DNA from: Paludibacteraceae bacterium
GTDB taxonomy: Bacteria > Bacteroidota > Bacteroidia > Bacteroidales > Paludibacteraceae
Direction: 5' to 3'
NCBI GenBank assembly: GCA_017547145.1
Contig: JAFYQJ010000017.1
Span: 57,936-121,935, forward strand
Length of the DNA stretch: 64,000 nucleotides
The notes under the pieces were generated by a model, which saw nothing but the letters and a program-made list of their open reading frames with translations, ran no database searches and had not been told where the DNA came from. Positions 14,170 to 58,163 of the stretch are shown piece by piece; position 1 is the first letter of the stretch; each line of letters starts with the position of its first letter. The translations under genes and the position numbers were made by a program.

Positions 14170-15097
14170 ACGCACGCTTTATTTCAGTAATCCCGCTTAT
14201 TTGTCTTTAAGGAATCAACAATTAGTAATAAAACTTCCGGAGGTGGAAACAAACGCTTCGCTTCCGGAAAGTTTCAAAGCAGATGCTACAAAGACAATTC
14301 CGATAGAAGACATAGGGATAGTAGTCTTAGACAACAAACAAATAACTATTACACAAGGAGTTTTAGAAGCCTTGTTAGAAAACAATTGTGCAGTTATCAC
14401 TTGTAACGAAAGCCACCTTCCAATTGGTATGCACTTGCCTTTGGTTGGCAACACCACACAAACCGAACGCATGCGTTATCAAATAGAAGCCTCTTTGCCT
14501 TTGAAAAAACAACTATGGCAACAAACCATAATTGCAAAAATACAAAACCAAGCCGCTGTCTTAAAACAAATGAGAGGAACAGAGGTTCGCAATATGCAAA
14601 AGTGGGCAACAGAAGTAAAAAGTGGAGATAGTGACAACCTTGAAGCAAGAGCAGCGGTTTATTATTGGCAAAACGCCTTTCCGATGATAGAAAACTTTAC
14701 ACGTTCAAGAGAGGGAGAGTCACCAAATAACCTTTTAAACTATGGATATGCCATACTAAGAGCAATAGTTGCAAGAGCCTTAGTGTCAAGTGGCTTGCTT
14801 ACAACCTTAGGCATACATCATAGAAACAAATACAACGCCTTTTGTTTGGCAGATGATGTAATGGAGCCTTATCGCCCATACGTTGATAAACTCGTAATGC
14901 AACTCTATGATAAATACCCCGATACACAAGAATTGACAAAAGAACTAAAAGCCGAGCTTTTGCAAATACCTGTATTAGATGTAACGATTAACAACAAACG
15001 AAGCCCATTGATGATTGCAGTTAGCACCACAACCTCTTCTTTGCAAAAGTGTTACGCGGGCGAATTACGCAAAATTATTTATCCAATAATACAATAG
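14162..15097 (+). CDS. cas1: Cas1 (type II)
   Basis: NLLNYGYAILRAIVARALVSSGLLTTLGIHHRNKYNAFCLADDVMEPYRPYVD is a Cas1 signature. It overlaps the cas9 stop by 8 nt. Confidence 0.93.
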   Translation: MIKRTLYFSNPAYLSLRNQQLVIKLPEVETNASLPESFKADATKTIPIEDIGIVVLDNKQITITQGVLEALLENNCAVITCNESHLPIGMHLPLVGNTTQTERMRYQIEASLPLKKQLWQQTIIAKIQNQAAVLKQMRGTEVRNMQKWATEVKSGDSDNLEARAAVYYWQNAFPMIENFTRSREGESPNNLLNYGYAILRAIVARALVSSGLLTTLGIHHRNKYNAFCLADDVMEPYRPYVDKLVMQLYDKYPDTQELTKELKAELLQIPVLDVTINNKRSPLMIAVSTTTSSLQKCYAGELRKIIYPIIQ

Positions 15098-15106
15098 ACT
15101 CTTAAA

Positions 15107-15439
15107 GTGCAACGATTTAGCGAATACAGAATTATGTGGGTGATGGTGTTATTTGATTTGCCAACCGAGACAAAGAAAGACAAGAAAGCTCATGCGAAAT
15201 TCCGTAAGCAATTATTAGAAGACGGATTTACGATGTTTCAGTTTTCTATCTATATACGCCATTGTGCCAGCAAGGAAAACGCTAATGTGCATATCAAAAG
15301 GGTAAAAAACTTATTGCCTGAATATGGAAACGTAGGAATAATCTGCATAACCGATAAACAATTTGGTGAAATAGAACTTTATCATTGTGGAAAGCAACAA
15401 AAAACTCAAACTAGTGGCCAACAACTAGAACTTTTTTAA
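15107..15439 (+). CDS. cas2: Cas2 (type II)
   Basis: [47 protein letters not shown] is a typical Cas2 ferredoxin-fold N-terminus. GTG start at 15107 (an ATG alternative lies at MWVMV). Confidence 0.9.
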
Positions 15440-15440
15440 A

Positions 15441-15558
15441 TATAAAAAATAGGTTCTTTCTTGAAAAAAGAACCTATAAATCAGTAACATTTTTAAATCT
15501 GTTTTTTGTTGTAAATGTTTGTCAATAAGCAACTTGTTGAAATCCTGTTGTTACTGAT
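15441..15558 (-). ncRNA. candidate array-terminal transcript (from the promoter inside the cas2-proximal repeat to the minus-strand terminator)
   Basis: Repeat-internal -7 box TATCTTTG (15570->15563) predicts a 5' end AUCAGUAACAAC. Those first 10 nt are exactly complementary to UGUUACUGAU encoded at 15480-15489. The RNA ends at the terminator 15449-15477. Confidence 0.3.
15449..15477 (-). terminator. intrinsic terminator oriented for leftward (minus-strand) transcription
   Basis: 11-bp stem ataggttcttt / aaagaacctat with a 7-nt loop. The U-tract (TTTTT) is present only on the minus-strand side (15448-15441). It lies 10 nt after the cas2 stop. Confidence 0.6.
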
Positions 15559-15748
15559 ATGTCAAAGATACAATTTTGAAAGCAATTCACAACATTTGCT
15601 GAAATTATCAACCTCTTGCGAATGTTGTTACTGATATGTCAAAGATACAATTTTGAAAGCAATTCACAACTCGTCCATCATATCGCTTACGGTCGATCCG
15701 GGTTGTTACTGATATGTCAAAGATACAATTTTGGAGGTAGTTTCACTA
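15547..15748 (-). CRISPR. type II-C CRISPR array: 47-nt repeats x3 (the last half-degenerate), 2 spacers (30 and 31 nt)
   Basis: Repeats GTTGTTACTGATATGTCAAAGATACAATTTTGAAAGCAATTCACAAC at 15547-15593 and 15624-15670. The third copy (15702-15748) is identical for its first 32 nt and then diverges. Spacers are at 15594-15623 and 15671-15701. Minus orientation is inferred from tracrRNA pairing and from the repeat-internal promoter. Confidence 0.9.
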
Positions 15749-35241: not shown

Positions 35242-37203
35242 ATGGAAGATAATAAAAATAAGGTTGGGTTGCCAGAAAATGCGACTCGTGAGTTGAAAGA
35301 TGGCGAAAAGTATAATCCGATTTTGCCACCAAACAAATGTGTGCCTGAAATTAGTTTTTATTCGGTAGCATGTGGGATTGTAATGGCCGTTTTGTTTTCG
35401 GCTGCTGCTGCATATTTGGGGTTAAAGGTTGGTCAAGTGTTTGAAGCTGCTATTCCTATTGCGATTATTGCTGTTGGAATTTCGAGTGCGACGCGTAGAA
35501 AAAATGCTCTTGGCGAAAATGTTATTATTCAGTCGATAGGAGCAAGTTCCGGAGTTATTGTAGCAGGTGCTATTTTTACGTTACCAGCTCTTTATATTTT
35601 GCAAGCTAAATACCCAGAGATAACGGTTAGTTTTATGCAAGTATTTTTGAGTTCTTTGTTAGGTGGAATTTTGGGTATTTTGTTTTTAATTCCATTTCGT
35701 AAATACTTTGTGAGCGATATGCACGGAAAATATCCGTTTCCGGAAGCTACGGCCACAACGCAGGTGCTTGTCTCTGGCGAACAAGGTGGAAGTCAAGCGA
35801 AACCGCTTATTTGGGCTGCGGCCATTGGCGGTTTGTACGATTTTGTTGTGGCAACTTTTGGTGCATGGAGCGAAACACTTACCTCGCGTATAATTCCATG
35901 GGGTGAATCGATAGCTCAAAAAGCAAAATTGACTTTTTCTATTAATACGGGTGCGGCTGTTCTCGGTCTTGGCTATATAGTTGGGTTAAAGTATAGTTTA
36001 ATTATTTGTGCAGGTTCGTTGTTTGTATGGTGGTTTATAGTTCCTTTGCTTGGAATGACAACGCAAGACTCTGTAATGTTGAGTCAAATGGATCCTGATT
36101 GGATTTTTGCTAACTATGCACGCTATATTGGTATTGGGGCTATTGCTATGGCTGGTGTTATTGGAATTGTAAAATCGTGGGGTGTGATAAAAGGTGCTGT
36201 TGGTTTGGCGAGTAAGGAACTTGGAAGCAAAGGAAAGGCTGTGGCACAAGCACTTCCTCGCACAGAGCGTGATTTGTCGATGAAGTTTGTGGTGTTGTCA
36301 ATTGTTGCAGCTCTTATCATTACATTCTTGTTTTTCTATTTTGGGGTGATAAATAATTTGTTCCAATCGCTTATAGCATTTCTTGTGGTGGCTGTTATTG
36401 CCTTTTTGTTTACTACGGTTGCTGCAAATGCTATTGCTATAGTAGGCTCGAATCCTGTTTCGGGTATGACGCTAATGACGCTCATTATTGCTTCGGTAAT
36501 ATTGGTGGCTGTTGGTTTGAAGGGTACAAGCGGAATGGTGGCCGCTATGGTAATTGGTGGCGTTGTTTGTACGGCGTTGTCGATGGCAGGAGGTTTTGTT
36601 ACCGACCTAAAAATAGGTTATTGGATAGGGAATACACCTGCAAAACAAGAAACTTGGAAATTCCTTGGTACGTTAGTTTCGGCAGCTACTGTAGGCGGAG
36701 TTATTATTATTTTGAATAAAACGTATGGCTTTACGGGCGACAATGCACTTGTAGCTCCTCAAGCTAATGCTATGGCTGCTGTGATAGAGCCGCTCATGAT
36801 GGGCCAAGGTGCTCCTTGGTTGCTTTATGGCGTAGGTGCAGTGTTGGCGTTGTTGCTCAACTTGCTTGGCGTTCCGGTTTTGGCATTTGCTTTGGGTATG
36901 TTTATACCATTGTCGTTGAATACGCCGCTTGTGGTGGGTGGATTGATTAGCTGGTATGTATCGTCGCGAACAAAAGATGCAGAATTGAATAATGCTCGCC
37001 AAGAAAAAGGTACGCTCATAGCATCAGGTTTGATTGCCGGTGGAGCTTTGATGGGGGTGGTGAGTGCCGCACTTAAGTTTGCCGATGTAGACCTATATAT
37101 GCCACAGTGGGCGGAAAGCAGCAGTGCTGCTATTTGTGGTGTGGTAGCTTATTTGTTGTTGATTGCTTATTTTGTTTGTGCAAGTATGCGTACAAAGAAA
37201 TAA
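35242..37203 (+). CDS. OPT-family oligopeptide transporter
   Basis: 653 aa with many TM segments and OPT-like conserved blocks (PFPEATA, GLKYSL). Confidence 0.8.
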   Translation: MEDNKNKVGLPENATRELKDGEKYNPILPPNKCVPEISFYSVACGIVMAVLFSAAAAYLGLKVGQVFEAAIPIAIIAVGISSATRRKNALGENVIIQSIGASSGVIVAGAIFTLPALYILQAKYPEITVSFMQVFLSSLLGGILGILFLIPFRKYFVSDMHGKYPFPEATATTQVLVSGEQGGSQAKPLIWAAAIGGLYDFVVATFGAWSETLTSRIIPWGESIAQKAKLTFSINTGAAVLGLGYIVGLKYSLIICAGSLFVWWFIVPLLGMTTQDSVMLSQMDPDWIFANYARYIGIGAIAMAGVIGIVKSWGVIKGAVGLASKELGSKGKAVAQALPRTERDLSMKFVVLSIVAALIITFLFFYFGVINNLFQSLIAFLVVAVIAFLFTTVAANAIAIVGSNPVSGMTLMTLIIASVILVAVGLKGTSGMVAAMVIGGVVCTALSMAGGFVTDLKIGYWIGNTPAKQETWKFLGTLVSAATVGGVIIILNKTYGFTGDNALVAPQANAMAAVIEPLMMGQGAPWLLYGVGAVLALLLNLLGVPVLAFALGMFIPLSLNTPLVVGGLISWYVSSRTKDAELNNARQEKGTLIASGLIAGGALMGVVSAALKFADVDLYMPQWAESSSAAICGVVAYLLLIAYFVCASMRTKK

Positions 37204-37226
37204 CGCAATTTTACAAAAAAATAAAA

Positions 37227-37260
37227 AGGCATTTAGTCAATTCGATTAAATGCCTTTTTT
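37227..37260. terminator. bidirectional intrinsic terminator
   Basis: 9-bp stem aggcattta / taaatgcct with an 11-nt loop. There is an A-run upstream and a T-run downstream, so it can stop the OPT gene (+) and any leftward transcript through the mini-array. Confidence 0.65.
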
Positions 37261-37290
37261 ATATCAAATAATAGATATGAATTTTTTTTA

Positions 37291-37524
37291 TGATTAGCAT
37301 TATTTAAAAATAAATGCTTTTACAGCCGTAATCCTTTCGGAGACGTTGTAGGACAAGTTGGATATCCATTTAAAAATAAATGCTTTTACAGCTTGTCCGA
37401 ATTTAGGACCTTTTCAAGCATCGTTGGATATCCATTTAAAAATAAATGCTTTTACAGCATGTGTGGTATAAGTTGTTGAAATCCAACGATTATATAAAAA
37501 ATAAATGAATTTTTTGAGTGCTTG
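37291..37524. CRISPR. mini CRISPR array (type V-associated): 36-nt repeats x3 with a 66-nt period, two bona fide 30-nt spacers plus a trailing spacer-like segment and a repeat remnant
   Basis: GTTGGATATCCATTTAAAAATAAATGCTTTTACAGC at 37357-37392 and 37423-37458. The copy at 37291-37326 shares only the 3' 25 nt. Spacers are at 37327-37356 and 37393-37422. 37459-37524 carries a repeat-like core AAAAATAAATG that is out of register. Confidence 0.8.
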
Positions 37525-37668
37525 AATATTGTAGAAACCATTGTTGCTACATATTTTTTAAAATTCAAACCTCAAACTAAGGCGTTCCAACACGCCCTTC
37601 CCAAAAAGGGAATAAAAAAATCATATCTAAAATTTCAAAGATCTCTGTATGTATAGGGCAAAGATAGC
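37525..37668 (-). ncRNA. candidate tracrRNA / guide-scaffold region of the type V locus (strand and ends uncertain)
   Basis: -7 box TATCTTTG (37666->37659) lies 2 nt after the effector stop. Three hairpins follow: ttccc-aaaaa-gggaa (37598-37612), ggcgt-tccaac-acgcc (37581-37596) and tgtagaaac-catt-gttgctaca (37530-37551). No ORF. Confidence 0.3.
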
Positions 37669-38397
37669 CTATTTTTTCTTTCTATCGACAACTTTTTTGC
37701 TCAAAGCAATGTTTCGTGCTGCATTCCAGTCGGCGTTAATGCCTTTGTATGTGCCATCTTTTTCTTGCTTGCCTTTCCCTTTTGTGCAATCAGGATTTTT
37801 ACAAATAAATATCGACTGGCTTATACGCTGTCCCTTTTCTCTGTGTCCGCAGAAACTGCAAGTCTGGCTTGTGTGATATGGGTCAATGTATCTTACTTCA
37901 ATTCCCGTAGCATTGGCCTTGTACTCAATCATTGTCTGCAATTCAAAGTACGACCAATAACGAAGAATGAACTTGTAGCCCTCATCCACTTCGTCGTTTT
38001 TGTTTCGACCAAATCCTGTGAGTCGTTCCATCTGAATTACGCCTGCTTTGTTTTTCAGGGCAAACTCAATAATTGATTTGCTAAAAATATGGTTTTGCAA
38101 GTGTACCCAATTTTTCTCCTTGTCTTGCAATCGCTTGAAAGCTTGCAATTTCTGATTCCTACCGTGTCCACCATTGGTAGTGTGGAGTAGGTTGCGTTGC
38201 AACTCCCTCTTTTGAGCCTGCATTCGCATACGCATATTCAGGAATTGCTCGCGTGAGCCGATGCTCATACCGCCATACTCATTGTCGTTGAGTGCTGCAT
38301 AAAGTGGTACGTTGATACCCAAGTCAACACCCACAACCCTCTCGGGGTTGAGATTATTTTGCACCTTTGGAATCTTTACAACCAGCAACAAAAACAT
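37669..38397 (-). CDS. C-terminal part of the Cas12f-like effector: split RuvC nuclease plus zinc-ribbon (TNB) domain
   Basis: VVGVDLGINVP (RuvC-I), GGHGRNQKL, AGVIQMERL (RuvC-II), ILRYWSYFELQTMIEYKA, CSFCGH...CKNPDC, and GINADWNAARNIA (RuvC-III). Confidence 0.8.
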   Translation of the reverse strand: MFLLLVVKIPKVQNNLNPERVVGVDLGINVPLYAALNDNEYGGMSIGSREQFLNMRMRMQAQKRELQRNLLHTTNGGHGRNQKLQAFKRLQDKEKNWVHLQNHIFSKSIIEFALKNKAGVIQMERLTGFGRNKNDEVDEGYKFILRYWSYFELQTMIEYKANATGIEVRYIDPYHTSQTCSFCGHREKGQRISQSIFICKNPDCTKGKGKQEKDGTYKGINADWNAARNIALSKKVVDRKKK

Positions 38398-38412
38398 TTT
38401 GTTATTTTTTGC

Positions 38413-39117
38413 CTAATTACCAACATCGTATTGTCCACTTAAAATACGCTCTACTATTTCACGATTATTACTTCTATCTCTGCCGAAGTTTAAATCCCAC
38501 TCCAGGCCTTTTGGAAATTTAACATAAATGTTATTAGGGTTGTTATCACGTCTGAAAATCCCTAATGTTTTATGCCCTGGACCAATTTTTATTCTGAAGG
38601 GTATAGGCATCCCTTTGCGATAATTTGGAACAGAACATTCTCCCTTTTTTATATCAATGCGTTTTTCGGTGTACTTTGATTTTTCTAAAATTAGACAATC
38701 CAAAATTTCGCCTGGAATCACATCTTTAAACTCTTTTCTAATCGTTTTTAGAATGGTATTGTGTTCTTGTGAAATCCCAAGAAATTCTTTTTTCTGTTCA
38801 GTGAAAAGCTTTTCTAATTCTTTCTTTTCTTGTTTTAGATTGTCTATTTCTTCTTGTGAAAGTTTGTCTCGTTTGCAGTGTTTGAGAATCTTTTCAATTT
38901 CTTGATATCTTGGGTTTGTAGCATACATACGAGATTCATACTCATCATTAAGAAAATAATGAGACATTATGCGGTTTGCTGCTTTATATAAATTGTCGTT
39001 TATCTCATTCCAAATGCGGTACTCTTCTTGGTTGCGAAGATTGGCTTCTTCGCTATCTCCGTGACGATGTAGATGTACCTCAATTTTTCTAGTAATGCAA
39101 GTAAATTCTGTTGCCAT
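38413..39117 (-). CDS. N-terminal part of the Cas12f-like effector (WED/REC-like region with a coiled-coil insertion)
   Basis: 234 aa. KGMPIPFRIKIGPG...IYVKFPKGLEWDLNFGRD...ILSGQYDVGN resembles the wedge strands of Cas14/Cas12f that precede RuvC-I. Confidence 0.6.
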   Translation of the reverse strand: MATEFTCITRKIEVHLHRHGDSEEANLRNQEEYRIWNEINDNLYKAANRIMSHYFLNDEYESRMYATNPRYQEIEKILKHCKRDKLSQEEIDNLKQEKKELEKLFTEQKKEFLGISQEHNTILKTIRKEFKDVIPGEILDCLILEKSKYTEKRIDIKKGECSVPNYRKGMPIPFRIKIGPGHKTLGIFRRDNNPNNIYVKFPKGLEWDLNFGRDRSNNREIVERILSGQYDVGN

Positions 39118-39138
39118 TTTTTTATATGATGAAATAAA

Positions 39139-39243
39139 CTATTTGAAACACATTGTTATACTAACCATAAATAGTATAAAAATACCAACGATAAAGCAGA
39201 TGGCTGCTATTATTTTTAAGGTGTTTTTTTGCTTTTTATCCAT
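39139..39243 (-). CDS. possible 34-aa single-TM peptide upstream of the effector
   Basis: ATG..TAG ORF MDKKQKNTLKIIAAICFIVGIFILFMVSITMCFK. A TAACTTTG box (39278->39271) lies upstream, and the ORF stops 21 nt before the effector ATG. It is below the ORF-track size cutoff. Confidence 0.25.
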   Translation of the reverse strand: MDKKQKNTLKIIAAICFIVGIFILFMVSITMCFK

Positions 39244-39404
39244 ATTGAAATAGTTATTTAGTTTACCCAACAAAGTTAATTTTTTTTATAGATAATGCGA
39301 CTTTTTTTGTTCTGTAATTCTTCGCATAATATTGTGCGTATTTTGGGCTATACCTTCGAAAAGTTTTCCTATTTTTGCAAGATAAAGTGTATGCATACAA
39401 ATAT

Positions 39405-50780: not shown

Positions 50781-53700
50781 TTATCGTGTTAACATAAATC
50801 GAATACTGAATCCGAAGTTAGAGTCGGAAATAGGGTATGAGGTCGAAATCAAAGGATTGTTCATTTGATAATCGTAGAATAGACGCAAGTTTAAGCGTGA
50901 ACTGAACACGTAGTCGGCACTTATTTTTAGCGAAACGGTTTTGTTGCCACTTGTGGGTTGCACTTCGTCGGTTTCTATTTTTCGAATCAAAGCTTTTGTG
51001 TCTTTAAAAGCAATGTCGAGGCGTGTGGTAAGGTTGTTTTTCACCTTCGAGGTTTTGTTTTTGAGTTTAAGAATGACGTCAAAATCTTTGACTACATAGC
51101 CAATACCAAACACAAATTCGTCGTTAGAGGTTTCGATAAGTTGAACACTTGCCATGTTGAGTGTAAGGTTGCGTTGCTTGCGGTATTCAAATTTGGCAGT
51201 GAGGCTATTTTTCATAGCCATATCCAAACCTATAAATGGCGAGAAATTTTCGTTGATAGAAACGCTAGCAATATCGTAGCCCGACGATGGAATTGGGTTG
51301 CCACTTAGCACATCACTTATAAATCCGTAGCCGTCGTCGTTTGTAATGTAACTAGCAAACGAAGTGTACGAACCAATGTTGTATGTACATTGATAAGTGT
51401 GTTTTAGGGTAACGGTTTTGAAGTGTTTTTTTATCCACGGAATGCGTGATAGTCCGTCGTAGGAGATGCTCCAGTTTGGCAATAAACTTTTCAAAGAAGG
51501 GAATGGAGTTTTCTCGGTTTTCTTCAACGAACGATTAGAATAAGCTGCAAAAAATGCAGGAATTAAAACATCGGGAGAGTTGAGGTTGTAGCTTCCTACC
51601 GATGGGTCAAATTTCTTCCCACTTAATAATGGTTTGTCTTCCATAAACCCTGTGGTTGGATAGTGCGTGTTTTGGTAGCGTGCTTGTAATTCTTGAGCAA
51701 TTGTTCCGCGGTGTTCTTTCATTTGTACGTATGCTTTCGAATGATAGTTGTTTTTTTCGTTACCTATTGCCCAAAACGAAGTACCAATGGCAACGTGTGT
51801 CATACGGAAACCTCCGGTAAATGTTTTTGGCATACCCTCAAAAGCGTATTGAACGGTTTTTTGGTCGGTGGTAACATATTTTGCCGAGAGTGCAATTTTT
51901 AGTCCGGGGATAGGCTCTATGTTAGCTTTGATGTCCAAATCGGTAGCTTTTGCAACACTTGCAGGATTGATAATAGAGTCGTTGCTCGAAAGCCATCCTC
52001 TCTCCCAAGCCCTTTCAATGAACCCTTCGCCGGGAATTCCGAATGAAAAATCGAGCCCCGGAGATAACATCTTTTGAGATGCTGACTGTCCGAAAAACGT
52101 AACATCGTTCATAAATCCGGGAAGAAGAAGGCTGTTCGATTCTTTATACGAAATAGATACGCGACGCACCATCATTAAAAATCGTAATGACAATTGTCCA
52201 AACTTTTGTGCTGGCGTAAGGGCGTTTGGGTCTTTAGTCTTTATTTTTATCGACAATTTGTTAATGTCTTGATTTGATGTGAATTCGATCTCGTTGTTGT
52301 TTTTCTTTTTGTATTTCAAACGAATTTCTTTGCCATTTGCATCGGTAGCAGTTAGGTCGAATGTAGTAGAATTAAGATTGTGGCGTACAGTTTTCTTTTC
52401 GCCTTTTTTTACATTGACTACAACGGAGAAGTTTTTAGCTCTAAATTTTCGTTGTGTTTGTGTAGTTTGCGAAGACGAGTAACGCTTATTTATGTCTTTT
52501 AAATATTTTGATTTATTGTAAAGCGTTTCAAGATTAAACTGCCCATCAACTTGCCAATTGTTAATACTTGAAATTGTATTTCCTATGGTAAGTTCATTTT
52601 CGGTTACGATGCCTCTATCCCAATGATATGTAGTGGAGTATTGTCCGTTGGCATTTATCCATTCCAAATAAGGTATTTTGTTGATAGGCAATGTGTACGA
52701 CGCCGTAAATATCTGTTGATAGGTAAGTGGTCGACCTAATGTTTTTAAGCTACTTAATACCGTATCTTTCCAATTTTTGTATTCATCGGGGAATATGTCT
52801 TTGTTTACAGGTGCGTATCGTGTTTCATCAACTCTGCAGTTTGTTGCAGTGGCGAGCGTGAATTTTAGGTTTTTAGTAAGGTCGTAGTTGAAATTGAATT
52901 TTCTGTCGAGGGTGAAATCTTTACTGAAAGATAGAAGCGTGTTGTCGGCAAAAGATTCTGCTTTTTCCATTGTACCAGTTAAGTCTCGCATTAAGATTTC
53001 CGAATAATTTCGTGCGAGGTTTGCCGAGAAACTTATTCTGTTAGGAATGTAGTTGATATTAAACTCTTTAATAATGCGGAATGCAGGGTTGTTTAATTTT
53101 TTAGAATTTTTAAATGGCTCCCAAGGCTTTGGTGTAGTTGAAAAATCGTAATTGAACGAGGCTTGATGATCTTTCATTACATCGTATTCTGTTTCGGGAT
53201 TTTTGTTTTCGGTTTCGTTATAGGCATACGATAGAGAGAAGTTAGCTGGGTCGTATATTCTAGGTTTTTTGCCCGAATAATCTACTTTTACATTTGTTAG
53301 ATTTACACTTTTGGTAGTTTGTCGAGTAATCGATTTTTTTTCTAATTCTTTTTTCTCTTCTTCGGTTTCGAGAGCATCAAGAGCGTCGTTTAATAGTACA
53401 TCTTCGTCTAGCGGATTGTATTTAGGCTTTTCGTAATCTTGCGAATAAGAGAAGTAAATTGGCAATTTAACGTTAGCTTTTTCGGGGAAAAGCTTGCCTA
53501 ATTCAAAAGCAGTTGATAATTGCAATTGATATTTGTTTTCCATATTGCGATCTTGTACGTTGTCTTCAATACCTCCAAATCCTGCAGTTTCTACGCGTCC
53601 GGCTATATTAAAATTACCAAAATCAGAAAAGTTAATTGCTAAATCGGAAACAGCTCCCCATCCACCTTCTTCGTTAAACTCGCTTAAACGCAATTCGTTA

Positions 53701-56700
53701 ACCCATACTTCAACACTCTTTTCAGATTTAGAGTTGTTTCGTATACCAATCATTATTACTTGTACGTCAGCAAGATTTGGATTGCCGAGTATCGTAACCT
53801 TGTTTTGTAGGTTTTCAGGATCGTATTCGGAATATTTTGTGTGCTGATTGATAGCCGTGTTTCCTCTGCTTTTTTCACGATTGCGATTGTTTTTTATTTT
53901 TGTCAGCAGTGAAAGAGGAAAGTCTATCATATTACTTTGAGGCCAAACAATTTCAGCTTCATTTTCAGAATAAAGACCCTCTTTTGTTAAAGTGAGTGGA
54001 ACTTCGTATTCGTAGTAATTGTTAGTATTGTCTGTTCCTATACGAATGAAAACACTTACTTCGTTGTCTTTAATTTCAAGATTGTTGACAACTTCTGCAT
54101 GGGTAAACATCTGAATACGACCATATTGGCGTAAGTCGAATGATAGGTTTTTATAAACAGCTCGAGCATCGCCTGGCGACAAGTTTGCAACCTTTAGTTG
54201 CATCGATTGTTCGTTTTCTTGTCGAAGTTGTGGTTGACTTGGGTCAGTTTCTCGTGTAACACCAGGTGGCAAAATATAGTTTACAGGTTTCTTATTTGCA
54301 TTTTCTTCGATACTAACAGCCGATACGTCTATTGTCCCATTAGTTATAGGAGGATTATTTGCTTCGTATAAATCTTTCGAATAAATACGCCAATCACCAC
54401 GAACAAGTCTTATAGTACCAAAACGTAGATGCGTAGTTTCCGAATAATTATTTAAGAACATTCTAATGAAACGAATTGAGCGGAAATCTCTAATTGTACC
54501 ATAACTTCTTTCGTAACTTCTTATAGGAATTTTGAATTGATACCAAGTTACATTACTTTTTGTACCATTTTTTAGTTCTACGCTTGCTTCAATTTTATCA
54601 TTGATGTAGTTTTTCCCTATTTCAAGGTCTGCTTTTCTTGTTGAAATGCGGTATTCGAAATATTTTTCATATTCGTTGAGTGTGTTGTCGCCGTTTAGGT
54701 CTTCTACATCAGGTAGTGTAGATGCAGAGGTGGAGTAGTTTTCATTGTTTTTGTTTGATGGAATAGAGTTGCCTTCCATGCCATTGTAACGTTTGTATCG
54801 CTCTAAAATACCTAACTCTTGAGCATCGTAGTCTGAACCTCTATAGTGATGATAGTTGTCGCCTGCAGGGTCGTTTAGTACTGAAAATGGGTCGTTATTT
54901 AAACGTTGTAGAGCTTCTGTAGAAAGTTTACTTTTATAGTTGTTTATATAGTTTTTGTAAGTAGAAAATTTAAACTCTTCTTCAGTTTTTAATCCATCAA
55001 AACCAACATCTTGATTCATACGAGCATCGTCGTCGTTGGAAAAAGCCACAACTGTTGATTGTACTTTAGGAACACGTCCCCAAATTGTAGTTTCAGTTAC
55101 AGAAGTATCGCCAACGGCCGAAAGTCCATTCTCAAAATATTTTTTACCATCTTTCAAAATGTCTTCAGATATATCACCAAGGTTGATAAATAAATCGCCA
55201 CCTTGCATTGTGCCTGTTGAGTCGTTTACAAATGGGTCCATTAACCAAAATTCAAGGTATTCGATGTTTGATGTTTCAAAATTTGTTACATCAAGTTTAC
55301 GCATGATACCTCCCCAACGCTTTTGAGGGAAAAGTAAATTCCCGTTATTATCAATGTTGTCGGAGTCAAGGTTGTACGGACCGCGTTCGTTTGGATAGAA
55401 AGACAAGTTTAGTACCGAAAGATATGATGTTTCTCCAACGATGGCTTCTCTGTTTGGAAATATTTCTTGTTCGAGTACTTCTCGAGTCAAATGGTTTGAC
55501 TGCAAATCTTTGTTTTGTTTGATATGTATTGGTGTGGTGGAGTTGTTTCTGTTAAAAACACTATTGTCTATCGAATACCAACTTAACAAAGCTCTATTTT
55601 TACCATATTCAGTATCATTACTTTTTTTCGATTCTGGAAAACTTGATGGTGTACTTGCCAATTTCCAATAATATGGATATGCAATGTCGATGCTTGTTTC
55701 TGATGTTTCGAAATCGTCGAGATAGGCAAAACCTTTGTTATTTTCTATTTTTCGATGTCCTGGTATTAATTGGGCAACTTCTGCATTAAATGATATATTA
55801 GATTCTTGCGAAAGGTTAAGTAATGGCAATTTATTTAGAAAAGAAGTTAACCATGGAGCTTCTGTTTTGTAAGCTGCATTTACACCCCAAATTGTATTTG
55901 AAAGAGGTTCAGAACCAATTGCCATTTTTGTTACTAAAGGCATCTCGGAAAGGTGCATCACAGTACCACCAATAGAAAAATCTTTGTTAAACGTATATTC
56001 GAGATGTGTACCAACTAGAGTTTTCCGTTGTAGGTTGAACATTGATTGATTTTCAAGCGAAACATCAATGTCTGTACCTGAAGCTAAAATGGATTCGTCG
56101 AGAATTGTAACTGTACCCATAATGTAATCTACAATGTAGTCTACGTTTTCTGTTAATGTTCTACCTCCTGCAGTAACTTTTACCGAACCTCGTGTTACAT
56201 TCATTGCATTAAGTTGAATTTCGGAACTTGACGATGCTTTGTATTTTCCTGATATAATAAATTTATTTTTTTCAGAAAGTTCTTGTGCAACGATTAAGGT
56301 AGAGTCGTACAACTCTTGGAAAATATATTTTTTTGCAATTGCATCGTTCCCAATAACTTTTCGTAAGCCTTCGCCAAATGGTTCTAGAAGAGGGAAGTAT
56401 ATTCGTCCTGTAGAGGAGTTGATGGTAAATCCTTCTACATAGTCAAAAGTCCCGTCGGGATGTGGTTCGTTGCGAGAATCTAAACGATCGAATCCTAAAG
56501 CTCTAACAAGAAGTTTGTTTTTGATATTTCCTTCGCTTATATAGTTTAGGTAAAGACCATTGGAGTCGTTGCGGTGTTGAATGTCGAGTCTGAATTTTTC
56601 CGATTGAATGCGTGTAGCTCCAATATAATAAACGTTTTTCATCATCAAATCCCAGGTCGGTATATTTGGGTTTTGTGCTGAACTTTTTAGCAATTTTAAT

Positions 56701-58163
56701 ATTAAAGCTTGTGGAGGATCTATTCTGTCGGTAGAAAATTCTCCTACTTGATATGTTTTTCCATTGTATGTATACTCAAAAGCAACGGCAAGCACTTCGT
56801 CAGCATTAAGTGTATTTTGCAGAGAAATATATCCTAATTGAGCATTGAATGTATATTCAGAAGCATCGAGTTTACGGGCACTTTCTATTTTTTCATAATC
56901 TTCTCCGCCTACCATCCCATTGTAGCCATCGAGGGTGCTATTTGTGGTTTGTATATCACGTACACTCGTATTGCTTGCAAATTCTGCATACAGATTGTTG
57001 CTTCTATTGTCAGGAATGGGGGAAGCAATACTCCAAAAATTATTGTGAATACGTTCACTTTCGGCTAAGTCCATAAATGCAACAATATTCCGAGCTTGTT
57101 CGTAATTGCCACGTTTGTTTGTAACCCATACCTCTACACGATTTATGGTAATTCCGGAAGAGATTAGCGGAAGTTGTTTCATCGACTTTTCGTAATTGTC
57201 GCGAAAATAATGTGCTAAAAAGAAGTGTCTGTTTTCGTCGTATTCGTCAGCATTAACTTCGAATTCTTTTAATTGAGTACCCCCTTTGCTATTTACATGT
57301 TGCGATTCCGATTGTTGTTGAGAAACAACTGCCGTAACATTTAGTTTCCCAAATTGTAATTCTGTTTTTATACCAAAAAGAGCAGAACTCCCTTTTATTA
57401 AAGAGCCTTGTACGGGCATACTTACATTACCGGCTTCAAGTTTTTTTATGATTTCGTCTTCTTTCCCAGAGTAGGCCAATTTCAACATTTGTTTATCAAA
57501 GTCAAATGTAGATTCTGTGTTGTAATTAAGGTTAAAGTTGATTTTATCTCCAACTTTTCCATTTACACTTAATTGAATATTTTCATCAAAATCGAAAGTG
57601 GTTGTTTTTCGAAGTTTTTCTGATAGTGCAGGGTTGTCTAGCTTATTGTGTAATAAACCAAATGTTATTTCTGCAGAACCTTGTGTTTTGAGTTGAACAC
57701 CGCCCGGACCAAAAATTTTGTCGGCAGGTCCAATGTCAAATTTTATATCTGTAAGTTTAAATTTGGAGTCGTATGATTCAAGTTTTTCGGAGTTTTTTGT
57801 TTTCCAAAAGTTTTGCATCTCTTGTTGCAACGTATAATCTTTATATTCTTCTTCTGTAAGCGAAAATGGACTTGATATTTCGATATCTCCTATTTTTGTT
57901 CGAACAATATAATTGCCAGAAATTGGGTCGTATTCTATTTCTGTTTTAATGTTTTCGGGGTCTTTTAAGTCAATAGGATTTTTCTCTGTTAAATCTTGAT
58001 AATCATTTTTTTGTAAATCTTTTACTTTGAATTCTGGACTTGGAATATTCTCAAAAGACTCATCCTCTTTTTGTTTTTTTTGTGTAGTTTGCCCTATAGC
58101 ATAATTTGATATAATCATGCCAAAAACACTAATGACGATAACTATTTTTAGTAGTTTATGCAT
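50781..58163 (-). CDS. sprA: T9SS outer-membrane translocon SprA/Sov
   Basis: 2460-aa secreted giant beta-barrel-type protein. Its size and its position next to ruvA are typical of sprA in Bacteroidota. Confidence 0.8.
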   Translation of the reverse strand: MHKLLKIVIVISVFGMIISNYAIGQTTQKKQKEDESFENIPSPEFKVKDLQKNDYQDLTEKNPIDLKDPENIKTEIEYDPISGNYIVRTKIGDIEISSPFSLTEEEYKDYTLQQEMQNFWKTKNSEKLESYDSKFKLTDIKFDIGPADKIFGPGGVQLKTQGSAEITFGLLHNKLDNPALSEKLRKTTTFDFDENIQLSVNGKVGDKINFNLNYNTESTFDFDKQMLKLAYSGKEDEIIKKLEAGNVSMPVQGSLIKGSSALFGIKTELQFGKLNVTAVVSQQQSESQHVNSKGGTQLKEFEVNADEYDENRHFFLAHYFRDNYEKSMKQLPLISSGITINRVEVWVTNKRGNYEQARNIVAFMDLAESERIHNNFWSIASPIPDNRSNNLYAEFASNTSVRDIQTTNSTLDGYNGMVGGEDYEKIESARKLDASEYTFNAQLGYISLQNTLNADEVLAVAFEYTYNGKTYQVGEFSTDRIDPPQALILKLLKSSAQNPNIPTWDLMMKNVYYIGATRIQSEKFRLDIQHRNDSNGLYLNYISEGNIKNKLLVRALGFDRLDSRNEPHPDGTFDYVEGFTINSSTGRIYFPLLEPFGEGLRKVIGNDAIAKKYIFQELYDSTLIVAQELSEKNKFIISGKYKASSSSEIQLNAMNVTRGSVKVTAGGRTLTENVDYIVDYIMGTVTILDESILASGTDIDVSLENQSMFNLQRKTLVGTHLEYTFNKDFSIGGTVMHLSEMPLVTKMAIGSEPLSNTIWGVNAAYKTEAPWLTSFLNKLPLLNLSQESNISFNAEVAQLIPGHRKIENNKGFAYLDDFETSETSIDIAYPYYWKLASTPSSFPESKKSNDTEYGKNRALLSWYSIDNSVFNRNNSTTPIHIKQNKDLQSNHLTREVLEQEIFPNREAIVGETSYLSVLNLSFYPNERGPYNLDSDNIDNNGNLLFPQKRWGGIMRKLDVTNFETSNIEYLEFWLMDPFVNDSTGTMQGGDLFINLGDISEDILKDGKKYFENGLSAVGDTSVTETTIWGRVPKVQSTVVAFSNDDDARMNQDVGFDGLKTEEEFKFSTYKNYINNYKSKLSTEALQRLNNDPFSVLNDPAGDNYHHYRGSDYDAQELGILERYKRYNGMEGNSIPSNKNNENYSTSASTLPDVEDLNGDNTLNEYEKYFEYRISTRKADLEIGKNYINDKIEASVELKNGTKSNVTWYQFKIPIRSYERSYGTIRDFRSIRFIRMFLNNYSETTHLRFGTIRLVRGDWRIYSKDLYEANNPPITNGTIDVSAVSIEENANKKPVNYILPPGVTRETDPSQPQLRQENEQSMQLKVANLSPGDARAVYKNLSFDLRQYGRIQMFTHAEVVNNLEIKDNEVSVFIRIGTDNTNNYYEYEVPLTLTKEGLYSENEAEIVWPQSNMIDFPLSLLTKIKNNRNREKSRGNTAINQHTKYSEYDPENLQNKVTILGNPNLADVQVIMIGIRNNSKSEKSVEVWVNELRLSEFNEEGGWGAVSDLAINFSDFGNFNIAGRVETAGFGGIEDNVQDRNMENKYQLQLSTAFELGKLFPEKANVKLPIYFSYSQDYEKPKYNPLDEDVLLNDALDALETEEEKKELEKKSITRQTTKSVNLTNVKVDYSGKKPRIYDPANFSLSYAYNETENKNPETEYDVMKDHQASFNYDFSTTPKPWEPFKNSKKLNNPAFRIIKEFNINYIPNRISFSANLARNYSEILMRDLTGTMEKAESFADNTLLSFSKDFTLDRKFNFNYDLTKNLKFTLATATNCRVDETRYAPVNKDIFPDEYKNWKDTVLSSLKTLGRPLTYQQIFTASYTLPINKIPYLEWINANGQYSTTYHWDRGIVTENELTIGNTISSINNWQVDGQFNLETLYNKSKYLKDINKRYSSSQTTQTQRKFRAKNFSVVVNVKKGEKKTVRHNLNSTTFDLTATDANGKEIRLKYKKKNNNEIEFTSNQDINKLSIKIKTKDPNALTPAQKFGQLSLRFLMMVRRVSISYKESNSLLLPGFMNDVTFFGQSASQKMLSPGLDFSFGIPGEGFIERAWERGWLSSNDSIINPASVAKATDLDIKANIEPIPGLKIALSAKYVTTDQKTVQYAFEGMPKTFTGGFRMTHVAIGTSFWAIGNEKNNYHSKAYVQMKEHRGTIAQELQARYQNTHYPTTGFMEDKPLLSGKKFDPSVGSYNLNSPDVLIPAFFAAYSNRSLKKTEKTPFPSLKSLLPNWSISYDGLSRIPWIKKHFKTVTLKHTYQCTYNIGSYTSFASYITNDDGYGFISDVLSGNPIPSSGYDIASVSINENFSPFIGLDMAMKNSLTAKFEYRKQRNLTLNMASVQLIETSNDEFVFGIGYVVKDFDVILKLKNKTSKVKNNLTTRLDIAFKDTKALIRKIETDEVQPTSGNKTVSLKISADYVFSSRLNLRLFYDYQMNNPLISTSYPISDSNFGFSIRFMLTR

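What the first reader, a model, noticed from the sequence alone, without database searches (positions are those of the whole stretch)
37291..39243. Orphan miniature type V (Cas12f/Cas14-like, TnpB-derived) effector with a private 36-nt-repeat mini-array and no adaptation genes
Two adjacent same-frame minus-strand ORFs together give a ~482-aa protein. The C-terminal half has a complete split RuvC (VVGVDLGINVP / AGVIQMERL / GINADWNAARNIA) and a CxxC...CxxxxC zinc ribbon (CSFCGH...CKNPDC), in the TnpB/Cas12f order. By eye it aligns block by block with Cas14a/Cas12f1 (GGHGRNQKL, ILRYWSYFELQTMIEYKA, YIDPYHTSQTC). The N-terminal half has wedge-like strands and a coiled-coil insertion rather than the usual TnpB N-terminus. 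145 nt beyond the stop lie three 36-nt direct repeats at an exact 66-nt period with unique 30-nt spacers. No cas1/cas2/cas4, transposase or obvious IS ends are present, and the locus is wedged between housekeeping OPT-transporter and CapD-like genes. At about 480 aa it sits at the small end of RNA-guided nucleases. The characterised Cas12f proteins I know come mainly from Firmicutes and uncultivated archaea, so a Bacteroidota representative with its own guide architecture may be a distinct, undescribed subtype or a TnpB-to-Cas12 intermediate. A complete II-C system sits 22 kb away.
Basis: partly seen in the sequence, partly recalled or inferred. Interest (0 to 1): 0.85.

Follow-up and report, generated by a model that had tools for sequence, protein, structure and literature searches.

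The report
Broken Cas12f CRISPR locus, known clade
This is a real miniature CRISPR-Cas12f locus (nuclease gene, tracrRNA and a two-spacer array), but it belongs to a Bacteroidales clade that has already been described and solved structurally (uCas / Al3Cas12f), and in this genome a 12-bp deletion that creates a stop codon has knocked out the nuclease gene.

Summary
Two same-frame minus-strand ORFs (38413-39117 and 37669-38397) are split by one TAG and give a 482-codon TnpB-like RuvC/zinc-finger protein. They are followed by 36-nt repeats at a 66-nt period with two 30-nt spacers.

The interpretation as an undescribed subtype or TnpB-to-Cas12 intermediate is not supported. The repaired protein is 68% identical over its full length to Al3Cas12f (PDB 9NZO/9NZR). 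The intergenic region carries a tracrRNA homologous to the validated Al3Cas12f guide. The repeat ends in ATATCCAAC, the signature reported for the "uCas" Cas12f nucleases from ruminant Alistipes MAGs in 2023.

Sixteen related genome loci with a complete gene (of 17 found) share the layout cas12f-tracrRNA-mini-array with no cas1/cas2. Their genes are intact at 481-488 aa.

The window comes from a Paludibacteraceae MAG. Relative to intact 486-aa alleles at the same chromosomal site, it has a 12-bp deletion. The deletion removes a conserved beta-strand and creates the TAG. The same broken allele occurs in at least three other assemblies, so it is not an artefact.

Spacer 1 matches a phage contig at 29 of 30 positions with a T-rich 5' flank.

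Verdict: a new, defective member of a known kind, of low interest. Side observations are a conserved inverted repeat bracketing tracrRNA plus array, and complete spacer turnover between strains.

The parts
38413..39117 (-). N-terminal fragment of cas12f (234 aa): WED strands plus the enlarged helical REC domain. It ends at the premature TAG (38413-38415).
   Evidence: Aligns to Al3Cas12f residues 1-235. The dimer-interface residues R49, Y60, R63 and F112 are conserved.
38413..38415 (-). Premature TAG created by a 12-bp deletion (junction between 38415 and 38414). Relative to intact alleles the deletion removes CATCAATTCAGG, that is residues S235-E239.
   Evidence: Alignment to intact conspecific contigs L023/L024. 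S235 and Q238 are invariant in 32 homologs. Residues 234-239 form a beta-strand in the AF2 model.
38395..38397 (-). ATG that starts the second ORF. It was created by a G-to-T change (Arg245 AGG to Met ATG) 15 nt (five codons) downstream of the TAG.
   Evidence: The intact alleles of the 90% cluster carry Arg here and the consensus of 32 homologs is Arg.
37669..38397 (-). C-terminal fragment of cas12f (242 aa): last WED strand, RuvC (D265, E364, D463 in 482-codon numbering) and the CxxC...CxxxxC zinc-finger/TNB domain.
   Evidence: Pfam PF07282 E 2.3e-14. NCBIfam guided_TnpB 144 bits. PDB 9NZO E 2.8e-220. Motif positions.
37632..37668 (-). Conserved promoter-like motifs just after the stop codon: TATCTTTG (the Bacteroidetes -7 box TAnnTTTG) and GATCTTTGAAAT. 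Inferred to be the promoter region of the tracrRNA/array transcript.
   Evidence: Conserved in nearly all homologous loci. The promoter assignment is an inference from the known Bacteroidetes -7 consensus and was not tested.
37502..37616 (-). tracrRNA core. It has a 5' hairpin (37598-37612) and a second hairpin (37580-37597) whose invariant loop GUUGGA is complementary to the repeat 3' end UCCAAC (pseudoknot). A long kinked stem follows, then the anti-repeat AAAUUCAUUUA (37502-37512).
   Evidence: Aligns to the validated Al3Cas12f sgRNA. RNAalifold on 14 sequences gives 32 pairs, 20 with compensatory changes. No Rfam family reaches threshold.
37475..37488 (-). Leader element CGTTGGATTTCAAC between the tracrRNA and repeat 1. 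In other loci it is a hairpin, GTTGGAATTCA-N-TATTCCAAC, whose 3' arm resembles the repeat 3' end.
   Evidence: Conserved in position. Function unknown.
37291..37458 (-). CRISPR mini-array: R1 37423-37458, S1 37393-37422, R2 37357-37392, S2 37327-37356, truncated terminal repeat R3 37291-37326.
   Evidence: The repeat ends in ATATCCAAC, like the uCas/Al3Cas12f repeats.
37393..37422 (-). Spacer 1, GATGCTTGAAAAGGTCCTAAATTCGGACAA. It matches 29 of 30 positions in a thymidylate-synthase-like gene of an IMG/VR viral contig, with the 5' flank TATTT.
37612..37635 (-). Upstream arm of a conserved inverted repeat that brackets the tracrRNA plus array.
   Evidence: (pair I2).
37266..37291 (-). Downstream arm of the same inverted repeat, directly after the truncated terminal repeat.
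   Evidence: (pair I2).
37223..37260 (.). Hairpin flanked by A and T runs. Likely a bidirectional terminator shared with the convergent OPT gene.
   Evidence: pair I6: 16-nt arms, 94% complementary. Equivalent hairpins follow the array in other loci.

Best explanation
The locus is a stand-alone type V-F CRISPR-Cas12f module of the uCas/Al3Cas12f clade, sitting in the chromosome of a Paludibacteraceae (Bacteroidales) gut bacterium.

How the intact form works, by homology to Al3Cas12f:
- Two copies of the roughly 486-aa protein dimerise through an enlarged helical REC domain on one tracrRNA:crRNA duplex.
- The tracrRNA anti-repeat pairs with the repeat segment UAAAUGGAU.
- The loop GUUGGA pairs with the repeat end UCCAAC.
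- About 20 nt of spacer directs RuvC cleavage of double-stranded DNA next to a 5' T-rich (DTTR/TTR) PAM, which gives immunity against phages.

In this genome the RNA half (promoter motifs, tracrRNA, two repeats, two spacers, terminator) is intact. The effector gene is not. A 12-bp deletion removed a conserved WED beta-strand (S235-E239) and fused T+AG into an in-frame TAG. The locus is therefore most likely a recently inactivated pseudogene carried as a strain-level polymorphism.

Shown here: homology, tracrRNA conservation and covariation, the deletion, its presence in independent assemblies, and the phage match. Inferred: dimerisation, PAM, cleavage, promoter use, and loss of function.
For: Identity of the protein.
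- phmmer against PDB: Al3Cas12f 9NZO/9NZR, E 2.8e-220 over residues 1-482. Next come CnCas12f1 8HR5 (1.6e-62), then RhCas12f, OsCas12f, AsCas12f and Un1Cas12f1. The only TnpB is at 2.9e-10.
- BLASTP gives 68% identity and 80% positives to Al3Cas12f.
- Foldseek with an AF2 model of the 97%-identical intact allele ranks 9NZR, 9NZO, 8HR5, then AsCas12f. TnpB structures fall well below.

Guide RNA.
- The window region 37502-37616 aligns with the experimentally validated Al3Cas12f sgRNA.
- 20 of 32 predicted pairs show compensatory changes.
- Anti-repeat and repeat co-vary (CAUUU/AAAUG here, CACUU/AAGUG elsewhere).

Clade layout.
- The genome scan found 17 close loci. The 16 with a complete gene have it intact at 481-488 aa.
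- All loci with enough downstream sequence have the same tracrRNA and 36-nt repeats, most ending in ATATCCAAC, at a 65-67-nt period.
- There is no recurrent neighbour gene and no cas1/cas2 hit within the flanks held, up to 6 kb each side.
- This matches the published uCas description and Al3Cas12f.

Inactivation.
- The 12-bp deletion creates the TAG when compared with intact conspecific alleles.
- The deleted S235 and Q238 are invariant in 32 homologs, and the deleted residues form a beta-strand.
- TAG is an ordinary stop codon here, ending 7 of 31 long ORFs. No suppressor tRNA is in the window.
- The broken allele is 100% identical in three other assemblies from different samples.

Immune function.
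- Spacer 1 matches a viral contig at 29 of 30 positions with a T-rich 5' flank.
- Intact alleles at the same chromosomal site carry entirely different spacer sets.
Against: - Loss of function is inferred and has not been measured.
- A G-to-T change creates an ATG 15 nt after the TAG. Both fragments could therefore be translated, and two close mutations could hint at compensation.
- The broken allele persists in several samples and its tracrRNA and array show no decay. That fits either very recent inactivation or residual function.
- The 5' flank of the one protospacer is TATTT. It fits the published DTTR PAM only if the register is shifted by one nucleotide (TTTG).
- The window protein was not compared with the uCas sequences directly, because they were not available.
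Confidence: 0.8

Rival explanations
1. Naturally split, still functional Cas12f. The N-terminal WED/REC fragment (234 aa) and the C-terminal RuvC/ZnF fragment (242 aa, re-initiated at the new ATG 15 nt after the TAG) are both made and reassemble on the guide RNA.
For: - The R245M change that creates the ATG is specific to the broken allele and lies 15 nt (five codons) from the TAG.
- All catalytic and zinc-binding residues are intact in the C-terminal ORF.
- The tracrRNA and array are undamaged.
- The allele is found in several samples.
Against: - The deletion removes an entire beta-strand containing invariant S235 and Q238. This strand pairs with the first strand of the C-terminal fragment. 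Neither fragment carries it.
- The two changes could be one complex mutational event.
- No other split allele was seen among 16 genome loci or the five contigs carrying intact alleles of the same 90% cluster.
Confidence: 0.08
2. The stop codon is an assembly or sequencing artefact, and the organism actually has an intact 486-aa gene.
For: The source is a metagenome-assembled genome. Closely related intact alleles co-exist in similar samples.
Against: - The same allele is 100% identical over 3.5-5.7 kb in three further assemblies from different samples and assemblers: ENA ERZ28019155, ENA ERZ28662813 and Logan SRR12529255.
- A clean 12-bp deletion is not a typical short-read error.
Confidence: 0.05
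3. Conditional read-through. The TAG is suppressed, for example by a suppressor tRNA brought in by a TAG-recoded gut phage, so full-length Cas12f is made only during such infections.
For: The stop is TAG and in frame. Stop-codon-recoded phages of Bacteroidales are known (background knowledge, not tested here).
Against: - The read-through product would still lack the conserved S235-E239 strand.
- TAG is a normal stop codon in this genome.
- No suppressor tRNA is in the window.
- The one matched phage contig reads in the standard code.
Confidence: 0.03
4. One reading: a distinct, undescribed type V subtype or a TnpB-to-Cas12 intermediate with a private guide architecture.
For: - NCBIfam only names it as TnpB family, with 144 bits against the broad guided_TnpB model.
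- NCBI annotates it as 'transposase'.
- The uCas authors argued that their clade lies outside Cas12f1-3.
Against: - 68% identity to a solved, experimentally active Cas12f.
- A homologous tracrRNA and repeat.
- The clade has been published twice.
- It has a CRISPR array and tracrRNA, not an omega-RNA and transposon ends.
Confidence: 0.03
5. An ordinary IS200/IS605 or IS607 TnpB with an omega-RNA, where the repeats are chance or transposon-end features.
For: Pfam OrfB_IS605 gives a weak hit at E 0.0015, below the cut-off. The TnpB family HMM is above its cut-off.
Against: - No TnpA, and a single copy in the window.
- The same chromosomal site is occupied in related genomes at 81% flank identity.
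- The repeats are conserved across the related loci while the spacers all differ.
- A spacer matches a phage.
- The tracrRNA is homologous to a validated one.
Confidence: 0.01

Closest known systems
Al3Cas12f (Cas12f-MG119-28, Alistipes sp.; PDB 9NZO/9NZR; Guan et al., Nat Struct Mol Biol 2026, PMC13186708)
   Same: - 68% identity and 80% similarity over the whole length.
- Same catalytic and zinc-finger motifs.
- Same enlarged REC domain. The dimer-interface residues R49, Y60, R63 and F112 are conserved.
- Homologous tracrRNA with the same hairpins, the GUUGGA loop and the anti-repeat. Repeat ends in AUAUCCAAC.
- Gene, tracrRNA, then mini-array in the same order.
   Different: - This copy has the 12-bp deletion and the TAG.
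- F102 of Al3 (an NTS/gRNA contact) is E here.
- The host is Paludibacteraceae at 35% GC, not Alistipes.
- The anti-repeat/repeat pair carries a compensated C-to-U / G-to-A change.
uCas-116/-117/-122 (Sharrar et al., bioRxiv 2023, 10.1101/2023.02.03.527072)
   Same: - 486-488 aa Cas12f from ruminant-gut Bacteroidales MAGs.
- 36-bp repeats with a constant ATATCCAAC-3' end and 29-32-bp spacers.
- tracrRNA between the nuclease gene and the array.
- No other cas genes.
- PAM DTTR.
   Different: Those genes are intact and active in human cells.
CnCas12f1 (Clostridium novyi, PDB 8HR5)
   Same: - Next-closest solved structure: phmmer E 1.6e-62 and Foldseek E 2e-27 at 35% identity.
- Long REC helices.
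- V-U3-type locus without adaptation genes (background knowledge).
   Different: C-rich PAM and a shorter gRNA stem 2. Only about 35% identity.
Un1Cas12f1 / Cas14a
   Same: Same domain order and the same mechanism, an asymmetric dimer on a tracrRNA:crRNA guide.
   Different: - Only about 20% identity, with alignment limited to the RuvC/ZnF half.
- 529 aa.
- Cas14 loci of DPANN archaea carry cas1, cas2 and cas4 (background knowledge).
IS200/IS605 TnpB (ISDra2, PDB 8EXA/8H1J; ISFba1 8IAZ)
   Same: Ancestral fold: WED, REC, RuvC and ZnF. The broad TnpB HMM matches.
   Different: - TnpB uses an omega-RNA derived from the transposon right end, not a tracrRNA plus CRISPR array.
- It is associated with TnpA and LE/RE ends, and is usually multi-copy.
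- None of these features is seen here.

Membership tests
Type V-F CRISPR-Cas12f (uCas/Al3Cas12f clade) | Small (about 400-700 aa) TnpB-derived effector with a C-terminal split RuvC (D/E/D) and a CCCC zinc-finger/TNB domain | tested here: met
   PF07282 at E 2.3e-14. D265, E364, D463, C420, C423, C439 and C444 are present and invariant in the clade.
Type V-F CRISPR-Cas12f (uCas/Al3Cas12f clade) | Full-length sequence and structure similarity to experimentally validated members | tested here: met
   9NZO at E 2.8e-220, residues 1-482. 68% identity. Foldseek top hits are 9NZR/9NZO and 8HR5.
Type V-F CRISPR-Cas12f (uCas/Al3Cas12f clade) | Adjacent CRISPR array whose repeat is conserved among homologous loci while the spacers differ | tested here: met
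   36-nt repeats, most ending in ATATCCAAC, in the related genome loci with enough downstream sequence. All spacers are unique.
Type V-F CRISPR-Cas12f (uCas/Al3Cas12f clade) | tracrRNA with an anti-repeat, encoded between the effector gene and the array | tested here: met
   Homology to the validated Al3Cas12f sgRNA. 20 of 32 pairs have compensatory changes. Expression was not tested.
Type V-F CRISPR-Cas12f (uCas/Al3Cas12f clade) | Enlarged REC domain with alpha2/alpha3 helices and the Al3-type dimer interface | tested here: met
   Long helices at 23-58, 88-113 and 119-130 in the model. R49, Y60, R63 and F112 are conserved. Dimerisation itself cannot be tested here.
Type V-F CRISPR-Cas12f (uCas/Al3Cas12f clade) | RNA-guided dsDNA cleavage next to a 5' T-rich (DTTR/TTR) PAM | not testable with these tools
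   The only evidence is indirect. One protospacer matches at 29 of 30 positions with the 5' flank TATTT, or TTTG if the register is shifted by 1 nt.
Type V-F CRISPR-Cas12f (uCas/Al3Cas12f clade) | Uninterrupted effector ORF (a functional member) | tested here: not met
   In-frame TAG from a 12-bp deletion that removes the conserved strand S235-E239. It is a member by descent but a probable pseudogene.
IS200/IS605-IS607 TnpB transposon | Association with TnpA and with LE/RE ends, and an omega-RNA overlapping the 3' end of tnpB | tested here: not met
   No transposase ORF nearby. A tracrRNA plus CRISPR array lies downstream instead.
IS200/IS605-IS607 TnpB transposon | Multiple copies per genome at varying sites | tested here: inconclusive
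   Single copy in the 64-kb window. The site is fixed between the OPT and CapD-like genes in related genomes. The whole genome was not available.
Cas14-type V-F loci with an adaptation module | cas1, cas2 and cas4 adjacent to the effector | tested here: not met
   None at the locus. No hit to the II-C cas1/cas2 in the flanks of 15 related loci (up to 6 kb each side), and no recurrent neighbour gene. The only cas1/cas2 pair belongs to the II-C system 22 kb away.

The most novel reading that the evidence does not exclude
The effector is known, but the non-coding half of the locus may hold something not yet described.

(i) A conserved, co-varying inverted repeat of about 20-25 nt brackets the tracrRNA plus array. 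It would let the 5' and 3' ends of a single tracr-array transcript pair. That duplex could be a processing or stability signal, for example an RNase III site. Alternatively the repeat may mark the boundary of an exchangeable guide cassette.

(ii) Closely related strains carrying alleles of the same 90% cluster at the same chromosomal site hold completely different spacer sets, although no cas1/cas2 is at the locus. This implies that spacers are acquired in trans. The obvious candidate is the II-C Cas1-Cas2 22 kb away, whose array also uses spacers of about 30 nt.
Probability: 0.2. Interest if true: 0.5.

Novelty: new member of a known kind. Interest (0 to 1): 0.18.

Why it matters
As a discovery it matters little. 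This Cas12f clade has already been mined, patented, engineered and solved, and this copy is broken, so it offers no new editor.

Three smaller points have some value:
- It extends the clade to Paludibacteraceae at a fixed chromosomal site.
- It documents a natural knock-out allele that segregates alongside intact alleles. This is a snapshot of CRISPR loss within a gut population.
- It points to two open questions about adaptation-less V-F loci. One is how their arrays renew spacers. The other is what the conserved inverted repeat around the tracrRNA and array does.

Tried and rejected
- Rfam scan of 37100-37800. Only sub-threshold chance hits, and no family covers this tracrRNA.
- Spacer 2. 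No exact 20-mer in IMG/VR and no meaningful hit in the phage collection. Spacer 1 also has no meaningful hit in the GenBank phage collection.
- A concatenation of 46 spacers from related loci against the GenBank phage collection gave no match. A natural PAM logo could therefore not be derived.
- RNAalifold on the concatenated inverted-repeat arms did not recover the long-range stem, because the AT-rich alignment was out of register. Support for the inverted repeat rests on its consistent position and on per-locus duplex energies.
- The sigma-70 promoter scan found no more sites than in shuffled sequence. It is not informative for Bacteroidetes.
- TAG reassignment was rejected because TAG ends 7 of 31 long ORFs. 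No suppressor tRNA is in the window.
- Further decay of the N-terminal ORF in contig L027 turned out to be a scaffold gap of Ns.
- No self-targeting. Neither V-F spacer matches elsewhere in the window, and the II-C spacers do not match the phage contig.


Full report
**1. Observation**

On the minus strand, ORF 38413-39117 (234 aa) and ORF 37669-38397 (242 aa) share one reading frame. A single TAG and five codons separate them. Read through, they give 482 codons.

The C-terminal half carries the RuvC motifs VGVDLG, IQMERL and INADWN and the zinc ribbon CSFCGH...CKNPDC.

The array lies downstream on the same strand. It has two perfect 36-nt repeats, GCTGTAAAAGCATTTATTTTTAAATGGATATCCAAC, and a third copy that keeps only the first 25 nt. 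The period is exactly 66 nt, with two unique 30-nt spacers.

The neighbours are an OPT transporter and a CapD/PseB-like dehydratase. A complete II-C system lies about 22 kb away: cas9 9889-14169, cas1, cas2, and 47-nt repeats at 15546-15748.

**2. What the protein is**

Pfam finds the Cas12f1-like TNB domain. NCBIfam places the protein only in the broad TnpB family.

The decisive result is the search of solved structures. The repaired protein matches Al3Cas12f (PDB 9NZO/9NZR) at E 2.8e-220 over residues 1-482. BLASTP gives 68% identity.

The next hits are all Cas12f proteins: CnCas12f1, RhCas12f, OsCas12f, AsCas12f and Un1Cas12f1. The only TnpB scores 2.9e-10.

An AlphaFold model of the 97%-identical intact allele P0001 (mean pLDDT 75) gives the same ranking with Foldseek.

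Al3Cas12f comes from a gut Alistipes. It is an obligate dimer with a T-rich PAM and a tracrRNA, and it edits human cells efficiently. Its enlarged REC domain, with extended alpha2/alpha3 helices, is described as the hallmark of the clade.

An earlier preprint described the same kind of locus as 'uCas'. Its features were:
- 486-488 aa proteins from ruminant-gut Alistipes and Tidjanibacter MAGs
- 36-bp repeats ending in ATATCCAAC, and 29-32-bp spacers
- a tracrRNA between the gene and the array
- no other cas genes
- PAM DTTR

**3. The guide RNA**

The published Al3Cas12f sgRNA (supplement of PMC13186708) aligns to the window at 37502-37616 on the gene strand. Shared features are:
- a 5' hairpin
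- a second hairpin, GGGCGUGUUGGAACGCCU, whose invariant loop GUUGGA is complementary to the invariant repeat end UCCAAC
- a long stem
- the anti-repeat

Across 14 sequences RNAalifold predicts 32 pairs, and 20 of them show compensatory changes.

The anti-repeat and repeat also co-vary. The window has AUUCAUUUA/UAAAUGGAU, where other loci have AUUCACUUAA/UUAAGUGAAU.

The RNA architecture is therefore the known one, not a private one. No Rfam family covers it.

**4. Related loci**

A scan of one genome per species found 17 close loci in Alistipes, Rikenellaceae, Paludibacteraceae and other Bacteroidales MAGs.
- The 16 loci with a complete gene have it intact at 481-488 aa.
- All loci with enough downstream sequence have the tracrRNA and 36-nt repeats at a 65-67-nt period. 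Most arrays in the genome scan are short, with 1 to 8 full repeats.
- No neighbouring gene recurs, and no cas1 or cas2 hit lies within the flanks held, up to 6 kb each side.

L010, a Paludibacteraceae MAG, is syntenic with the window on both sides at 81% nucleotide identity and carries the module at the same site.

The exact ORF products are in NCBI as MBR5470443.1 ('transposase') and MBR5470444.1 (hypothetical), from a Paludibacteraceae MAG.

**5. The stop codon**

Contigs L023 and L024 are 97% identical to the window across the gene and its flank. They encode an intact 486-aa protein.

Relative to them, the window lacks 12 bp (CATCAATTCAGG). This fuses T+AG into TAG. A G-to-T change 15 nt downstream turns Arg245 into the ATG that starts the second ORF.

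The deleted residues S235-E239 include the invariant S235 and Q238. They form a WED beta-strand that pairs with the following strand, RFLLLVVKIP.

TAG is a normal stop codon in this genome, and no suppressor tRNA is in the window.

The broken allele is 100% identical in three further assemblies from different samples. An apparent extra lesion in one of them is only a scaffold gap.

I conclude that the deletion is real and that this copy is most probably a pseudogene segregating alongside intact alleles. Those intact alleles include a mosaic 486-aa allele and a 474-aa in-frame variant.

**6. Evidence of immune function**

Spacer 1 matches an IMG/VR viral contig at 29 of 30 positions. The match lies at the start of a thymidylate-synthase-like gene next to a DNA methyltransferase gene.

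The 5' flank is TATTT. That is T-rich, but it is DTTR-compliant only if the register is shifted by one base (TTTG).

Spacer 2 has no hit.

Intact alleles at the same chromosomal site carry six spacers (L029, L030) or two spacers (L031-L033). None is shared with the window. Arrays in this lineage therefore turn over despite lacking local adaptation genes.

**7. Side observation**

A 20-25-nt inverted repeat brackets the tracrRNA plus array. One arm (37612-37635) sits just 5' of the tracrRNA. The other (37266-37291) sits directly after the truncated terminal repeat and before a terminator hairpin.
- In 12-13 of 16 loci, the best complement of the upstream region lies 55-70 nt after the last full repeat.
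- Duplex energies are -14 to -27 kcal/mol, with z-scores of -3 to -8, in 12 of 14 loci.
- A locus's own arms pair better than arms taken from different loci (-16.4 against -11.9 kcal/mol).
- RNAalifold on a concatenated alignment did not recover the stem.
- The Al3Cas12f paper mentions neither an inverted repeat nor RNase III.

The function of this repeat is unknown. A 5'-3' panhandle of one tracr-array transcript is my best guess.

**8. Verdict**

The novelty claim is not.

This is a new but defective member of the published uCas/Al3Cas12f clade. Interest is low (0.18). Some residual value lies in the natural knock-out polymorphism, the spacer turnover without local cas1/cas2, and the inverted-repeat bracket.

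Noticed in passing
window 37612-37635 and 37266-37291 (and equivalent positions in L001-L017): A conserved, co-varying inverted repeat brackets the tracrRNA plus CRISPR array in this Cas12f clade. The downstream arm always follows the truncated terminal repeat directly. It is not mentioned in the Al3Cas12f paper. It could be a 5'-3' panhandle or RNase III site of a single tracr-array transcript, or a cassette boundary.
   Followed up: partly
window 37475-37488; L003, L005-L009, L013, L014 between tracrRNA and repeat 1: A conserved leader element. In most loci it is a hairpin, GTTGGAATTCA-N-TATTCCAAC, whose 3' arm resembles the repeat 3' end (ATATCCAAC). In the Paludibacteraceae sublineage it is shortened to GTTGGATTTCAAC. 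It may be a vestigial repeat/anti-repeat or an integration or termination signal.
   Followed up: no
L029/L030, L031-L033 versus window 37291-37458: Closely related strains (alleles of the same 90% cluster) carry the module at the same OPT/CapD site but have completely different spacer sets (6, 2 and 2 spacers, none shared). In L029/L030 a single substitution is homogenised across all repeats. This indicates active spacer turnover without local cas1/cas2.
   Followed up: partly
window 9889-15748: A complete type II-C system (cas9 of 1426 aa, cas1, cas2) with a mini-array of two 29-30-nt spacers and a degenerate third 47-nt repeat. The spacer length is the same as in the Cas12f array, and both repeat types start with GYTGT and end in CAAC. 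It is a candidate donor of adaptation in trans.
   Followed up: partly
window 39015-39084 (codons 12-34 of cas12f); proteins P0001, P0123, P0124: Allelic mosaicism. Differences from the closest intact allele cluster in codons 12-34. Another allele in the same 90% cluster has a 12-aa in-frame deletion there (474 aa). This suggests recombination among alleles in the N-terminal WED/REC junction.
   Followed up: partly
window 39139-39273 (minus strand): A small 44-aa ORF with a hydrophobic stretch lies between the CapD-like gene and cas12f. It is conserved in the conspecific contigs L023/L024. The corresponding intergenic segment is much shorter in the syntenic L010. It is unclear whether it is a real gene.
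   Followed up: no
window 50781-58163 (minus strand): A 2460-aa ORF is the T9SS outer-membrane translocon SprA/Sov (2850 bits). This is consistent with a Bacteroidota host.
   Followed up: no
L025 6978-8433 (IMG/VR UViG_3300022661_003948): The phage targeted by spacer 1 carries a thymidylate-synthase-like gene followed directly by a DNA methyltransferase gene. The protospacer lies in the first 16 codons of the synthase-like gene.
   Followed up: partly
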